From positions 1 to 64,000 of the forward strand of contig CBFGKH010000004.1 in NCBI GenBank assembly GCA_965649295.1: 64,000 nt of DNA, in the 5' to 3' direction. This document shows positions 36,001 through 45,000 of this stretch, one piece after another (the stretch's first letter is position 1; each line of letters begins with the position of its first letter). The position numbers are program-made. Origin of the DNA: a candidate division WOR-3 bacterium. GTDB lineage: Bacteria > Hydrothermota > Tepidihabitantia > Tepidihabitantales > Tepidihabitantaceae.

Positions 36001-39000
36001 ACGGAGATTCGGGTCAGAATGACGGCAGACCGCCGGCTCATCAATCAGGCTCTAAGCCAGACGCTCAATCTGGGCAGGAAGGTTCCGGCCCGACTGCGCC
36101 AAGCAATGCGCTACGCCGTGCTCGGTCCAGGCAAGCGTATCCGGCCACTGCTATTACTCTGGGCGTACCGGGCTGCTGGTGGGCGCACCCTGCACCCAGT
36201 ACTGCCGTTCTGCTGTGGTATCGAGTTCATCCATGCCTTCTCCCTTGTTCATGATGACCTGCCGGCAATGGACAACGACGACTTCCGTCGCGGCCGACCC
36301 AGTCTCCATCGTCGCTTCGGCGAATCAACCGCCATTCTAGCTGCTGACGGCCTATTTGCGCTCGCCTTCGAACTTTTTGCTCGGTCCTCGGCTACTGCTG
36401 AGCGACGTCTTGCCGCAATCACGACCATTGCTGCAGCAGTCGGCCCAGCCGGCATGACCGCCGGCCAGTTCACCGACACGACAGCTGGAACGCAAATCTC
36501 CACCCAACGACTGCTGCGCACGCAGGAACAGAAGACAGCCGAGCTGCTCGCCGCTGCGCTGGTCGCCGGCGCGATACTCGGCGGCGCCGACCAGCACTGT
36601 CAGCGACAGTTGCGGCAGGCCGGGATACACCTTGGCCGACTCTTCCAGATAACCGATGACCTACTCGACGCTGAACAAGCAAGTGACAGTCGTGTTGCCA
36701 CCATGGTCTCGCGATATGGCCGCGAAAAGACCCGCCATCTCGCTAGCCTCGAAGCAACCAAAGCAACTACCATCTTTAACGGACTTGGTGCCAGTTACAA
36801 GCTACTGGCCAGTATTCCTGCGCTGATTCTCAATCGCAAGACCTGAATGGGAGTACTCGAAAGAGTCAACTCACCGGCAGACATCCGCCGCCTGCCACTG
36901 GCCAAACTGGCCGAACTCTGCACTGCAATTAGGCAGCTAATTGTGGAGACGACTGCTGCAAACGGCGGTCATACCGCGCCTAGTCTTGGCGTGGTTGAGC
37001 TAACCATCGCTCTCCACTACGCCTTCAACACTCCGGAAGATCAGATTATCTGGGATGTCGGGCACCAGTGCTACGCCCACAAAATAGTCACCGGCCGTCG
37101 CGACCGGTTCTCGACCCTGCGCCAGTTGGGCGGCATCGCTGGATTCCCTAAGCGTGCCGAAAGTGAATACGACGTCTTTGACACTGGGCACGCCGGCAAC
37201 TCGATTTCTGCGGCATTGGGCATTGCCATCGGTGACCGGCTACAAGGACGTAACCGCAAGGTCGTCGCGGTGATTGGCGATGGTTCGATCGTCACCGGGA
37301 TGGCACTTGAGGCTCTGAACCACGGCGGCTGCTTGAAACAAGACCTCATTGTCGTCCTTAATGACAACGAGATGTCAATTGCCCGTAGCACTGGCGCCAT
37401 GGCCACCTACCTTAATCGCATCATCACCGGCCGGATGTACAACCGGCTCAAGGCTGACATCTGGAATCTACTCGGTCATCTGCCAAAGGAAATGTCCGGT
37501 GTTTCCCGCCAGGCCGCTCGCAAACTCGAAGAAGGCATCAAGAACCTAGTCGTGCCCAGCCTTCTCTTTGAGGAACTCGGTTTCCGCTACATCGGTCCCG
37601 TCAACGGCCATTCGTTGCCCGAGCTTATCGAGACATTCCAGCGGGTACGGCGATTGCCCGGTCCAACACTTGTGCACACCGTCACCCGCAAAGGTCAGGG
37701 CTATCCGCCAGCGCTGGCCCATCCTGAACACTTCCACGGCACTGGCCCATTCGACATAGCCACTGGCCGGCCCCGTCCCGCCACCGACCCCAGCTTCACC
37801 GCCACGTTCGGCAAGACACTTGTCCGGCTTGGCGAACACGATAAACGAATTGCTGCTATCACTGCCGGTATGTGCCTCGGTACCGGTCTTGATGAATTCC
37901 GCAACCGCTACCCTCAGCGTTTCTACGATGTCGGCATCTGCGAGCAGCATGCCCTGACATTTGCTGCCGGCCTAGCCCAAGCTGGAATGAAACCGGTTGT
38001 TGCCATCTACTCGACCTTCCTCTGCCGCGCTATTGATCAACTGATTCAGGACATCTGTCTGCAGAATCTGCCGGTGGTTGTTGCTGTGGACCGCGCCGGT
38101 CTTGTCGGTGAAGACGGTCCAACCCACCACGGCATGTTTGACCTCAGCTACCTTTCAATGATTCCGCGTCTTGAGGTGATGGCACCAATGGACGAGCCCG
38201 AACTCGCAGCGATGCTGGAATACGCAATAGGCCAAGCCAATGGCCCGGTTGCCATCCGTTACCCGCGCGGTGGCTCAGGGCTGAAAGCTAGCTCCCACCA
38301 ACCGCTGCGGCCGATGCGGGCCGAACTCATCTGCGAAGGCGACAACGGCTGCGTCATCGCTATCGGCTCAATGGTCGGTCCGACACTTGCCGCCTGCCAA
38401 GGACACGGCATTGCTGTAGTCAACGCCCGCTGGGCTAAGCCGCTGGATGACGAACTGATCGCCGAAACAAGCCATCGCTTTCGGCGCATCGTAACGGTCG
38501 AAGAGAATGTCCTTGCCGGAGGATTCGGGTCAGCCGTTGAACTCGCACTATCCCAGACTGGTTATCAAGGTAGGCTGATGCGCATTGGACTTCCTGACCG
38601 ATTCATCGAACACGGTCCCCGCTCCACGCTGCTCCAATCGGTCGGCCTCGACCCATCCGGCCTTGCCCAGCGTTTTGGCACTTTTTTTACCAAGGATTAG
38701 CCAGTGAGTACTCCTGCCCACCGTCTTCTTCTCCTCCTCTTTCTTGTCACAATTGCCGCTGCCGACCCAACGCTCTACGAACCAATCCGGTTCGTCGCCC
38801 GTCCTGACTACGAACTAGGCTACGTCTTCATCGAGCGCTGGCGCGGTAACCAATACATCGGCGTCGAACGGGTCGTAACAATCAGTGACTATCTTGATTA
38901 CGAGCTGCGTCGCTCAGTCAGTGAGACCTGGCGTCAGAAGGTTGAACGCACTCAGGAGCGCCGCGAAATCGAGGCCGACGCTTCCGGACTGATCCCGGAC

Positions 39001-42000: not shown

Positions 42001-45000
42001 GGACGACTCGTGCCTGGCCGCGATGACCGGTGGTATGAGTTCGCAATCCCCCTCGACTCGTTGCCGATACTCAAGGTCCTCAAGGCCCAGCGTGACTCAC
42101 AGACTACGCCAACCGATACATTCAGCCGCGGCCAGTATCGCCTTCGCGGCAACCCGACACTGGCCGACATCCGCTACACCGCCCTTGGCATCGAGAACGA
42201 AACTAACGATTTGATATCCGGGGCAATCTGGTTCAATGACATGCGACTGTCCGGGCCTCGTCGCGAGACCGGCTACGGTGCCCAGGCTCGAGCCGCTCTG
42301 TCCCTTGCCGACTTTGTCACTGCCAGCGCCAACGTCAACTACTCAGATCCAAATTTCCGCCGATTCAGTGAGGGGCGTGAGGTCAAAATTGGTGGATTCG
42401 GTACCCAGCTGGCCGCGAGCATCCGTACCAACTTTGACCGGCTGCTACCCTATAGTTGGGGACTCTCGATACCACTTCTCTATCAGGTTTCAAGGCAGGA
42501 AAACCTGCCGAAGTACTCAACTGACTACTCTGATCTGCGCACAGCCGGCACAATTGACAGTTTGGAACGGTCATTTGGCCGAACTGAGGAATTTGCCATC
42601 GAGAACGTCCGCAAGCAGCGATCAGGCAGTCGGTTACTCAACTACACGGTTGAAGCTCTGACTTTTTCCGGCCGCCGCCGCAAGGCCACCAACCAAGGCC
42701 CACTCGGCACCGACACCTCGACGAGCACAACTACCCAACTTGCCTATGCAATCGCGCCCGCCTGGCGAATAGGGGTCTGGGGCGACGAAGAACTATCCCT
42801 CCTGCCCCAGAACATTCGTCTTGCCGCCGTCCAAACCCAGCGCCGAGATTTCCGACGCACTTTCCGTCCCCGGCTCGACTCAACCTTGGTGCGGGCCGCA
42901 GTTCTCAGCACCGATGCCAGCATTGACTACTCACCGTTTGATGAGCTGGACTTTGGTCTTGACTTCCAGTCCGAACGTGACCTGCTGCCTGATTCAGCTC
43001 GGCCGTGGTACCAACGAGTCGGAACCGAGGCAAGTCAAGACCAGAGTTTCGATGCTGGCTACGAGATTGAACTTGGCGACGTCCTAACGCCGAGTATTGA
43101 CTTCAGTAGCTCCTACTCACACGACCGGCTCAAAGCTGGCAACCAATACCTGTCGGTACGCAACATGAACAACTCCGGCGATGTTGACCTGTCGCTTGGC
43201 CTGGATATTCCCGAGATTCTCGAACGACTTGGCGCTGAACCAACCCCTAGCCGCACCCGAGCGGCCGCTGAGACTTCCAGTGTTCCCAGCCGGGCCGCAC
43301 CGAAGACAGGAACTGCGTTGCGTCAGCGTCTCGGTCGAATCGCCCGCTATATCGAGCCCGTTGACATCGCCTACTCCTATTCCCGCGGAAGCGACCTTGT
43401 TGCCGTGTCGGGCGATGCTCCGATTGCCTATCGGTTCGGCATCGTCAACTACTTCACTACCAGTGAATCTGCCCCGCCGACAAGCATCACCCGTGACCAG
43501 GACAATACCTTGCGCGCCTCTTCCGGCCTGCGCTTCGGCGAAGTGTCCAGCCGGGTAGCTTTTGACGCCACTGGCGGCCGGCAGTATCGCATCATTTCTC
43601 GCAACCAAAGTGCAGTACTAGATAGCACCGTCACTTGGCCGGACCTGACACTGAACATCGGTAAAGTACACAACCTGTTCAAGGAGCTTGCGACCAGCTC
43701 GACTCTGTCCTCGCGGTTTGCGCTACGTCGTGTTTTGTCTGGCGAACTAAGACGAGATACACTGGACCGAGAGTATCTCGCTGTCTATGGCCGTACGGAA
43801 ACCAACCGGGTCGAATTCAGTCCTCTGCTCTCCTGGCAGACCAGCTGGAAACGACGGGTGACGACCACACTGTCGGCTAACTACACCATGGCGCGAGCAA
43901 CGAGTTTTCGCAACGAGACAGGAACAAACAAAGGAGAATCGGATACGCGCACACGCGGGGCCGAACTTTCACTTGCCTATTCGTTTGCGGCGCCTCAAGG
44001 TATCAAACTGCCGTTTCTATCCAAGGTCCGCTTCTCATCCGACCTAAGCCTGACCTGGTCCCTGCGCTACTCCAACAGCCTGCGCCGCGATCGGCTAATC
44101 ACCGACCAGAACCAAAACCCAAACTGGACCGGGCTGCAGAACGATAACTCGGTAGCAACCACCCTCTCTGCTTCCTATCGCTTCTCCCGCTCAATTGAAG
44201 CAGGATTGCAAACCGGCTACTCTCGGGCAAAAGGGCTGGCCCCGCAAACGACCGAGACGCTAGACCTCAATGTCTGGGTGATGTTCCGGTTCTAGTTGCG
44301 GAGCGCTGCCAGCAGCGTGTAGGCCGCGAGACGCGGATTGACTCCGTAGCGCGAGCAATCGTCCTTTCTTGCTAACAGATACTTCACTGCTCGTCGCAGA
44401 TAATCCGGCTGCAGATTATCAATCCGACGGCGCGCAGCAGGATTTCGCTCGATGAAATCTGAACCGGCGCCTAGCCGGTAGCGCATAGCCTGGCGGTAGA
44501 GAAACAGGAAAGTACCAACGACTATCGGTGCCGGCGTATCTGCGAGTTCTTCGAGCAGTTGAAGTGGTTGGCCAGTCCCCTGACAGAAGTAGTCGACAAT
44601 CGACTGACTCAGCACCGCCTCTGGCTCGGTTAGGAACCGGTCGGCCAGTCCAAGCGATCCCGCCCCAAACAATCCAGCCAGCGCGGCCTGTTCAGGATTG
44701 GCCTGCCGATGGGTCATTAGCCACTCCTGGATGACCCTTGCCGTTAGGTCGCCAAACCTAACTACCGCACAGCGTGAGCGGATCGTGTCGGGGACTGCCC
44801 ACAGGTTATCGGTGGTGAGAACGAAAGTGGTCTGCTCCTGAGGCTCCTCCAGTATCTTAAGCAAGGCATTAGCGGCCACCTCGTTCATTCGGTGCGCCAT
44901 GAGAATAATGACGAACCGCTGACGAGCGGCCAGCGGCGCCCGCGACATCTCGCTACGAAGCCAGCGAATCGTGCCAATGTGAATCTGATGACGCGGATCC

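What a model noticed while it worked through the whole genome (the two positions that open the first line are those of the whole stretch)
38704..44295. T9SS-type secretion with 75 cargo genes but no PorL/PorM motor or PorK/PorN ring genes
The genome encodes the SprA/Sov translocon (g00802, C4:38704-44295), a PorU-PorV pair (g01637-g01638), five further PorV/PorQ-family barrels, PorX-PorY (g01870-g01871) and 75 proteins with a T9SS C-terminal sorting domain (about 10% of all coded residues), yet no GldK/L/M/N (PorK/L/M/N), PorP, PorT or PorW homolog is detectable. I read this as a stripped-down type IX pathway, outside Bacteroidota, that works without the PorLM proton-driven motor and the PorKN ring, perhaps drawing on the ExbB-ExbD-TonB sets that sit next to cargo, Oar-like TonB-dependent barrels and PorV genes (g01009-g01017; g00054-g00058; g00676-g00678). 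New would be that the motor and ring held to be core T9SS parts are d [...]
Evidence so far: Call 98: NCBIfam/Pfam tables give 55 TIGR04183 plus FlgD_ig/Por_Secre_tail = 75 genes, 69,461 aa; SprA_N g00802; PorV/PorQ NF033709 x6; PorX NF052313; no product or Pfam name with Gld, PorP, PorT, PorW. Call 105: Peptidase_C25-PorV adjacency (g01637-g01638) is near in 11,988 of 16,828 genomes that have both (PorU-PorV signature). Calls 99-100: GldM (TIGR03517) and GldL (TIGR03513) models find nothing in the six-frame genome at E<=0.01. Call 104: Pfam GldM_1st (PF12081) reaches its cut-off in 0 of 121 Hydrothermota genomes (3 weak sub-threshold hits). Abstracts listed in call 102 describe T9SS as restricted to Bacteroidota with PorLM/PorKN as core; 'type IX secretion'+'WOR-3' finds no paper. 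[...]
(Added by a program. Inside this text positions count along the whole contig: contig position 1 is position 1 of the stretch shown here. "Call 12" and the like, gene names such as g00115 and contig names such as C1 are that model's own, and its searches are not shown. The text may have been shortened before it was handed on; [...] marks where a part breaks off. The agent that wrote the report below was given it as the finding of a first reader that could run no searches.)

Follow-up and report, generated by a model that had tools for sequence, protein, structure and literature searches.

The report
Type IX secretion without its motor
This gene encodes the outer-membrane pore of a type IX protein secretion system in a bacterium that, like its whole phylum and several related phyla, has the pore, its helpers and many cargo proteins but no recognisable copy of the motor and ring thought to power the system.

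Summary
Window 38704-44295(+) is a real SprA/Sov translocon gene (TIGR04189 461.5 bits, cut-off 200; matches F. johnsoniae SprA, PDB 6H3I, E 2e-33). The complete 2.28-Mb genome also has PorU-PorV, PorQ- and PorZ-like genes, a strong PorX (524 bits) with a kinase, and 83 CTD matches at cut-off. GldK/L/M/N and PorP were not found by curated models, phmmer, HMMs I built, or a search for GldL/GldM-like gene pairs; the same models scored 232-450 bits in a Flagellimonas control.

This is not peculiar to the genome:
- Own phylum (WOR-3/Hydrothermota): SprA in 126 of 131 genomes, GldM in 0 of 131, GldL_N over cut-off in 0 of 131.
- Gemmatimonadota: SprA_N in 56 of 81, GldM in 0 of 81.
- Sample of Flagellimonas's phylum: SprA_N in 64 of 81, GldM in 20-21 of 81.

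The ExbB-ExbD-TonB sets sit beside conserved cassettes (TonB-dependent receptor, ~1000-aa CTD protein, PorV-like barrel) that read better as nutrient-uptake modules. What powers export is unknown. Earlier notes of this scan on other DNA describe these cassettes and candidate GldLM-like pairs. I found no paper describing the missing motor. Verdict: new variant of a known kind, interest 0.65.

The parts
38704..44295 (+). [quoted passage not shown]
   Evidence: TIGR04189 461.5 bits (cut-off 200), PF14349 62 bits. Matches PDB 6h3i SprA at E 2e-33. Orthologues of 47-56% identity occur in related MAGs.
17455..19128 (+). Cargo gene with a T9SS type A C-terminal sorting domain
   Evidence: TIGR04183 36.1 bits at 18901-19095, in an open frame of 569 aa.
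55685..56761 (+). Cargo gene with a T9SS C-terminal sorting domain
   Evidence: TIGR04183 31.8 bits at 56576-56749. Pfam Por_Secre_tail 21.8 bits, below its cut-off of 27.
25245..27002 (+). Possible cargo gene with a weak C-terminal sorting domain
   Evidence: TIGR04183 17.9 bits, E 0.006, at 26808-26990; below cut-off.

Best explanation
The ORF is the SprA/Sov translocon of a working but reduced type IX secretion pathway.

Inferred sequence of events, by analogy with the Bacteroidota system:
1. Cargo with a C-terminal sorting domain (about 80 or more genes) crosses the inner membrane by Sec.
2. Cargo is taken through the SprA barrel and handed to a PorV-type barrel.
3. It is processed or anchored at the surface by the PorU sortase with PorZ- and PorQ-like partners.
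4. PorX and its neighbouring kinase regulate the system.

The inner-membrane PorL/PorM motor and the periplasmic PorK/PorN ring have no homologue here. The same holds in the rest of the phylum and in several other FCB-group lineages. So this is the common non-Bacteroidia form of the system, not a local loss.

The PorV paralogues next to TonB-dependent receptors and ~1000-aa CTD proteins most likely anchor surface partners of nutrient receptors.

Shown here: gene content, the absences by sequence, the phyletic pattern and the synteny. Inferred: that export works, and how. What supplies energy for release from SprA is unknown. My split is roughly one third no dedicated motor (ratcheting by surface attachment or folding), one third an unrecognised motor, one fifth a Ton-type motor, and the rest other means.
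For: Identity of SprA.

Other T9SS parts and cargo.

Absence of GldK/L/M/N and PorP in a 100% complete genome:
- Curated models.
- phmmer of Flagellimonas GldK/L/M/N against 32,412 six-frame ORFs.
- HMMs I built from 17-20 Bacteroidota sequences, run with --max.
- A search for a 2-TM hairpin protein followed by a bitopic protein. Of 18 candidate pairs, the two with the most hydrophobic hairpins, the only ones I scanned, are NfeD-SPFH and LapA-TPR.

Model sensitivity:
- Flagellimonas scores 232-450 bits.
- 5 of 5 named Bacteroidales-order genomes score 331-420 bits for GldM.
- Scores fall off a cliff. In the 81-genome sample, every genome's best GldM match is either >=261 bits (20 genomes) or <=36 bits (G238 alone; 60 have none); the only scores between, 28-61 bits, are extra short ORFs in two genomes that also have a full GldM. 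SprA_N in the same sample runs continuously from 647 down to 68 bits.

Breadth:
- Own phylum: SprA in 126 of 131 genomes (102 of 103 high-quality), GldM in 0 of 131, GldL_N over cut-off in 0 of 131.
- Gemmatimonadota: SprA_N in 56 of 81, GldM in 0 of 81.
- Sample of the phylum of Flagellimonas: SprA_N in 64 of 81, GldM in 20-21 of 81.
- 5 of 5 tested SprA-positive, GldM-negative genomes of that sample lack a GldK orthologue.
Against: - Absence is inferred from sequence only. GldL and GldM are small or fast-evolving, and an analogue with no sequence likeness would be missed.
- Unchecked earlier notes of this scan report candidate GldLM-like pairs in Kapabacteria and Ignavibacteria.
- A strong PorX orthologue is present. 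In P. gingivalis PorX is said to bind PorL (recalled, not checked here), which hints at an unseen inner-membrane partner.
- No expression, proteomic or secretion data exist for this organism.
- PorU, PorQ-like and PorZ-like scores are below NCBIfam equivalog cut-offs.
- GldK/L/N were tested in only a few genomes outside this one. PorT was not tested.
- The genome search tool uses a loose pre-filter that can miss weak matches.
Confidence: 0.6

Rival explanations
1. A PorL/PorM-type proton motor does exist but is too divergent, or only analogous, so no sequence model recognises it. The system would then work like the Bacteroidota one.
For: - PorX is conserved at 524 bits although its reported partner PorL is missing (the PorX-PorL contact is recalled).
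- Unchecked earlier notes of this scan describe unannotated GldLM-like membrane pairs in other SprA-bearing lineages without a known motor.
- The known motor is held to be essential for export in Bacteroidota (abstracts listed).
Against: - No hit for GldL, GldL_N, GldM or GldM_1st, even at E<=1 to 10.
- Custom HMMs with all filters off give one hit at 20.9 bits, to the cytoplasmic helical part of GldL. It lies in a 123-aa single-TM protein next to secA that has no TM hairpin.
- The architecture scan found no hairpin-plus-bitopic pair of unknown family among the two strongest hairpin candidates, the only ones scanned.
- GldM scores show a cliff, not a gradient.
Confidence: 0.2
2. One reading: an ExbB-ExbD-TonB motor replaces PorLM and energises SprA/PorV.
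For: - ExbB-ExbD-ExbD-TonB lies in one tight cluster with a TonB-dependent receptor, a ~1000-aa CTD protein and a PorV-family barrel. This holds in Hydrothermota (G011, G135, G022, own C5:76066-88206), Cloacimonadota (G003), Gemmatimonadota (G144) and G005.
- In G011 (100% complete) and G003 this is the only MotA/ExbB-family gene found.
- 130 of 131 genomes of the phylum have at least one ExbB, and 27 have exactly one.
- A second operon joins a PorV-like barrel and a TPR protein to ExbB-ExbD-ExbD-TonB (own C1:68980-77762, also G087).
- Precedent, recalled: the Myxococcus Oar receptor is needed for secretion of PopC.
Against: - The receptor in the cluster itself needs Ton, which explains the adjacency.
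- The receptor / CTD protein / PorV-like cassette is multi-copy (about 10 or more matches per genome) and mostly has no ExbB beside it, for example own C3:137411-144294. It fits a SusC/SusD-like uptake role.
- ExbB is near-universal in diderm bacteria, so its presence in all SprA-bearing genomes says little (controls).
- The C1 operon cannot be present in G011, G135 or G003, whose only ExbB lies in the other cluster type.
- No TonB box or contact with SprA or PorV was shown.
Confidence: 0.15
3. SprA and the CTD tails are not a working export route here: either a relic, or SprA has another role.
For: No functional data exist for this organism. The motor said to be essential elsewhere is missing.
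Against: - SprA is intact and kept in 126 of 131 genomes of the phylum.
- 83 CTD matches at cut-off, plus intact PorU, PorV and PorX, would not persist without use.
- In Fibrobacter succinogenes, CTD regions are absent from mature envelope proteins according to passages of PMC6851124. I did not test that organism's gene set.
Confidence: 0.05

Closest known systems
Type IX secretion system of Bacteroidota (Porphyromonas gingivalis Por system, Flavobacterium johnsoniae Gld/Spr system)
   Same: SprA/Sov translocon, PorV-family barrels, PorU sortase next to PorV, PorQ- and PorZ-like proteins, PorX response regulator with a kinase, and many cargo proteins with the TIGR04183 C-terminal sorting domain.
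   Different: No PorK/GldK, PorL/GldL, PorM/GldM, PorN/GldN or PorP/SprF by any sequence method used. SprA is 1863 aa, against 2367-2592 aa in the GldM-bearing genomes sampled, and has one SprA_N match where those have two. The organism lies outside Bacteroidota.
F. johnsoniae SprA (PDB 6H3I/6H3J, 2403 aa)
   Same: Homologous over three stretches, E 2e-33, 118 bits.
   Different: About 540 residues shorter. Similarity is patchy. The fold was not modelled here because the protein exceeds the size limit of the structure tool.
SusC/SusD-type outer-membrane uptake pairs of Bacteroidota
   Same: A TonB-dependent receptor (CarboxypepD_reg + Plug + barrel) is encoded directly before a large surface-protein gene, in many copies per genome and sometimes beside ExbBD-TonB.
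   Different: The partner is not a SusD lipoprotein. It is a ~1000-aa protein of no Pfam family that ends in a T9SS sorting domain, and it is followed by its own PorV-like barrel. The uptake role is inferred.
Ton system (ExbB-ExbD-TonB), and the Oar receptor of Myxococcus xanthus needed for PopC secretion (the latter recalled from memory)
   Same: ExbB, two ExbD, TonB_C and an Oar-like receptor are encoded together.
   Different: Nothing here shows that they act on SprA or PorV.

Membership tests
SprA/Sov translocon family (TIGR04189, PF14349) | Match to the curated family models above their cut-offs | tested here: met
   461.5 bits against 200, and 62.1 bits against 27.
SprA/Sov translocon family (TIGR04189, PF14349) | Giant 36-strand outer-membrane barrel fold | not testable with these tools
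   At 1863 aa the protein exceeds the 1200-aa limit of the structure tool. Only sequence likeness to 6h3i is available.
Canonical (Bacteroidota-type) T9SS | SprA/Sov translocon | tested here: met
Canonical (Bacteroidota-type) T9SS | PorV shuttle barrel and PorU sortase, encoded together | tested here: met
   PorU NF033707 371 bits (below the equivalog cut-off of 420, but aligned over 231-1281 of 1284 aa). The adjacent PorV scores 172 bits on PorV_fam (cut-off 90).
Canonical (Bacteroidota-type) T9SS | Cargo with a conserved C-terminal sorting domain | tested here: met
   106 TIGR04183 matches at E<=0.01, 83 of them at cut-off.
Canonical (Bacteroidota-type) T9SS | PorL/PorM (GldL/GldM) inner-membrane motor | tested here: not met
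   No match. Controls were positive.
Canonical (Bacteroidota-type) T9SS | PorK/PorN (GldK/GldN) periplasmic ring | tested here: not met
   GldN: none. GldK: only a generic FGE-sulfatase ORF at 31-70 bits against 350, with helicase and other unrelated neighbours. The control was positive for GldN.
Canonical (Bacteroidota-type) T9SS | PorP/SprF, PorW/SprE and PorT accessory proteins | tested here: inconclusive
   PorP: none at E<=10. PorW: a TPR protein at 75.6 bits against 250, explained by generic TPR likeness. PorT was not tested.
Canonical (Bacteroidota-type) T9SS | Export depends on the proton-motive force | not testable with these tools
   Needs culture work.
Ton system (for the ExbB clusters) | ExbB, ExbD, TonB C-terminal domain, and a receptor with a plug domain | tested here: met
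   PF01618, PF02472, PF03544, PF07715 and PF00593.

The most novel reading that the evidence does not exclude
The outer-membrane half of type IX secretion (SprA, PorV, PorU/Z/Q and CTD cargo, with PorX control) is the ancestral and most widespread form in the FCB group, and it exports proteins without any PorKLMN-type motor or ring. On this reading the motor-ring is a later addition confined to part of Bacteroidota, perhaps tied to gliding or high-flux secretion. SprA-mediated translocation would then not intrinsically need it. It would be driven by surface attachment or folding, or by a different and still unnamed energiser.
Probability: 0.35. Interest if true: 0.85.

Novelty: new variant of a known kind. 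Interest (0 to 1): 0.65.

Why it matters
- Reviews and structural papers treat the PorLM motor and PorKN ring as core parts of type IX secretion, and the energy step at the translocon is an open question (abstracts listed).
- If most SprA-bearing lineages lack these parts, then either the pore can work without them or an unknown energiser exists. Either way, a comparison across natural variants becomes possible.
- It also changes how the system should be searched for. Tools that require GldKLMN report it only in Bacteroidetes (PMC4793230, T9SS section read).
- It affects how the very large CTD secretomes of uncultured FCB phyla are interpreted.
- A pure culture of this phylum now exists (strain sy37; PMC12285271, passages read), so the question is testable.

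Tried and rejected
- **FGE-sulfatase ORF as a divergent PorK.** C6:97131-98057 scores better as EgtB-like. 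Its neighbours include a DEAH helicase and a polymerase-like gene, and no L/M/N-like genes.
- **The 828-aa TPR protein of the C1 operon as PorW/SprE.** It scores 75.6 bits against 250, and YbgF-type TPR scores higher. Left open, not accepted.
- **Custom GldL HMM hit** (C3:205259-205630, E 4e-4, 20.9 bits). It aligns only to the cytoplasmic helical region. The protein has one TM helix, no hairpin, and lies next to secA. Rejected.
- **Proteins with GldL-like topology.** They turned out to be DUF502, a sensor kinase, MnhE, NfeD (with SPFH) and LapA (with a TPR protein).
- **Weak PF22827 hits in the phylum.** All were <=15 bits, with similar noise in 6 of 14 unrelated control genomes.
- **Structure of the ~1000-aa CTD protein** from an 8-sequence alignment. 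Mean pLDDT was 44.3, too poor to search, so no fold search was run. The Atlas look-up returned only unnamed clusters.
- **Ton-drives-T9SS reading.** See the rival explanations.
- **Neighbours of sprA in the window.** They are housekeeping genes (folD, ispA, dxs upstream; holB, M23 peptidase, ftsEX downstream) and give no clue.
- **Literature.**
  - 'T9SS'+'WOR-3' found 0 papers.
  - 'T9SS'+'Gemmatimonadota' found 1, not relevant by its listing.
  - 'T9SS'+'ExbB'+'GldL'+'phyla' found 0.
  - Two WOR-3 papers hold none of the secretion terms searched.
  - One search was too loose to be useful.

Full report
**The gene.** The window is G000:C4:1-64000 of a 2,277,673-base genome in 19 contigs, rated 100% complete with 0.58% contamination. 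The ORF at 38704-44295(+) is open, 1863 aa, and starts four bases after the stop of dxs. It begins with a signal-peptide-like stretch. It is SprA/Sov: TIGR04189 461.5 bits (cut-off 200), PF14349 62.1 bits (cut-off 27), and E 2e-33 to the solved F. johnsoniae SprA. Its neighbours are housekeeping genes.

**The rest of the system in this genome.**
- PorU is at C9:69699-73553 (NF033707, 371 bits, aligned end to end, equivalog cut-off 420). PorV follows at C9:74191-75366.
- A PorZ-like CTD protein is at C9:50800-52944 (85 bits).
- A PorQ-like barrel is at C3:161694-162593 (161 bits).
- Six PorV/PorQ-family ORFs score over the subfamily cut-off, with weaker ones besides.
- PorX is unambiguous: C14:6642-8150, NF052313, 524 bits against 300, with a histidine kinase upstream.
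- TIGR04183 finds 106 six-frame matches at E<=0.01. By my count of the table, 83 are at or over cut-off. Two or three of them lie in the window.

**The absences.**

| Component / model | Result in this genome |
|---|---|
| GldM_1st (PF12081) | nothing at E<=10 |
| GldN (TIGR03523) | nothing at E<=10 |
| PorP/SprF (TIGR03519) | nothing at E<=10 |
| GldL (TIGR03513) | nothing at E<=1 |
| GldL_N (PF22827) | nothing at E<=1 |
| GldK (TIGR03525) | one generic FGE-sulfatase ORF, 31-70 bits against 350 |

The FGE-sulfatase ORF scores better as EgtB-like and has unrelated neighbours.

Flagellimonas gives GldM 449.8, GldL 231.7 and GldN 266.5 bits. GldM is found in 5 of 5 named Bacteroidales-order genomes at 331-420 bits.

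Further local searches also found nothing convincing:
- phmmer of the four Flagellimonas proteins against 32,412 six-frame ORFs finds only the sulfatase-like ORF.
- HMMs I built from 17-20 Bacteroidota GldK/L/M/N sequences, run with all filters off, add one 20.9-bit hit. It aligns to the cytoplasmic helices of GldL, in a 123-aa single-helix protein beside secA. I reject it.
- A scan for GldL-like topology, and for hairpin proteins followed by a bitopic protein, gave only known families. The two pairs with the most hydrophobic hairpins, out of 18, were the only ones scanned; they are NfeD-SPFH and LapA-TPR.

**How general it is.**

| Sample | SprA | GldM / GldL_N |
|---|---|---|
| Own phylum | 126 of 131 (102 of 103 high-quality) | GldM 0 of 131 at E<=0.001; GldL_N over cut-off 0 of 131 |
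| Gemmatimonadota | SprA_N 56 of 81 | GldM 0 of 81 |
| Phylum of Flagellimonas, 81 drawn evenly | SprA_N 64 of 81 | GldM 20 over cut-off (21 at E<=0.001); GldM_1st in the same 20 |

NCBI lists that name under Caldifarciminota.
- The Gemmatimonadota counts include G192, which the tool flags as unpublished.
- Single Cloacimonadota, Edwardsbacteria and unnamed (G005) genomes that carry SprA also lack GldM. The first and last of these lack GldL and GldN too.
- In the third sample, 44 SprA-bearing genomes lack GldM. I counted G238, with a 36-bit sub-threshold hit, as lacking it.
- Five of five such genomes tested also lack a GldK orthologue.
- In this sample every genome's best GldM match is either 261 bits or more, or 36 bits or less. 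The only scores between (28-61 bits) are extra short ORFs in two genomes that also have a full GldM. SprA_N scores run smoothly from 647 to 68 bits. That pattern fits real absence better than gradual divergence past detection.

**The Ton idea.** The genome has three ExbB genes:
- a Tol-like set at C4:143415-145915;
- ExbB-ExbD at C5:76066-77120, upstream of a CTD cargo gene, an Oar-like TonB-dependent receptor, a 1028-aa CTD protein and the best-scoring PorV-family gene.

I compared ExbB and PorV-family coordinates in 18 genomes. In 9 of them the two lie within 12 kb (my reading of the coordinates). I fetched 8 regions:
- 6 show ExbB-ExbD(-ExbD-TonB) with receptor, ~1000-aa protein and PorV-like barrel. 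These are in Hydrothermota, Cloacimonadota, Gemmatimonadota and G005.
- 1 is the C1-type operon.
- 1 is Tol-like.

In G011 (100% complete) and G003 this ExbB is the only one found. 130 of 131 genomes of the phylum have an ExbB, and 27 have exactly one. So the Ton reading is not excluded.

However, a profile of the ~1000-aa protein (alignment A2) shows a large multi-copy family:
- It hits 43 of 81 genomes in the sample of Flagellimonas's phylum.
- That is 41 of the 44 SprA-positive GldM-negative genomes, 2 of the 20 GldM-positive genomes (weakly), and 0 of the 17 without SprA.
- There are often 10 or more matches per genome.
- In 11 places that I compared, the hit lies directly beside a PorV-family gene.

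These labels follow kinship, so the contrast is not independent evidence. The simplest reading is a SusC/SusD-like uptake module whose surface partner is exported by the T9SS and held by its own PorV/PorQ-like barrel, as PorQ holds PorZ (recalled). The receptor then explains the Ton genes. Earlier notes of this scan on other genomes reached the same reading.

[quoted passage not shown] The latter rests on CTDs and BLAST hits (PMC11285876 introduction; PMC5837995 discussion; PMC6851124 passages). None of the passages I read discusses a missing motor or ring. Two recent WOR-3 papers, including the first isolate, hold none of the secretion terms I searched. Papers outside the library, and supplements, were not seen.

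**Verdict.** The 'stripped-down T9SS' reading is supported at sequence level, and it is the rule in several phyla rather than a curiosity of this genome. The Ton-motor proposal is not supported beyond adjacency. How export is energised remains open.

Noticed in passing
L039-L055, L033, L036, L038, L010/L025 (SprA loci of Gemmatimonadota, UBP2, Edwardsbacteria, some Hydrothermota); own genome C4:96121-98468: lptF/lptG (PF03739, up to 288 bits) lie directly beside sprA in 18 of 50 SprA loci from several phyla, usually divergently transcribed. In this genome they are about 52 kb away on the same contig. This may link LPS export with the LPS-anchoring secretion route, or may be incidental.
   Followed up: partly
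L004:11714-12106, L031:3402-3827, L033:8226-8702, L026:3843-4253 and others; own genome C5:34578-35021: A small ComEA-like helix-hairpin-helix protein (PF12836) is encoded immediately after sprA in 14 of 50 loci across phyla. In this genome the homologue is elsewhere.
   Followed up: partly
G000:C14:6642-8150 (outside the window): A full-length PorX orthologue (524 bits) with an adjacent kinase is kept although PorL, its reported partner (recalled), is absent.
   Followed up: partly
G000:C4:110558-112303 (outside the window): A 581-aa fusion of a PorV-family barrel with an OmpA/MotB-type peptidoglycan-binding domain. It is preceded by a 997-aa YVTN beta-propeller protein with a CTD-like end.
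   Followed up: no
G000:C9:78211-81336 (outside the window): A 1041-aa protein 3 kb downstream of PorU-PorV shares a short segment with SprA (TIGR04189 24.5 bits, and the same weak DUF2460 hit as SprA). It has no other family.
   Followed up: no
G000:C6:15192-16068 (outside the window): PorV-family similarity is split over two frames with in-frame stops (1 TGA, 1 TAG). This is probably a broken paralogue.
   Followed up: no
window 36847-38700 and loci L004-L012, L025, L027-L035: dxs directly upstream of sprA is conserved in 16 loci of the phylum (cluster of 602-650 aa proteins; named dxs only for the window's copy).
   Followed up: partly
G000:C3:144284-146467 and L256:14657-16192: A clostripain-family (C11) peptidase, carrying a FlgD_ig tail in the own-genome copy, follows the receptor / CTD protein / PorV cassette both here and in G011.
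   Followed up: no
G048 (same genus as G011): The only genome of 131 with no ExbB match, though rated 100% complete. It is in 150 contigs and its SprA is fragmentary, so this is probably an assembly gap.
   Followed up: no
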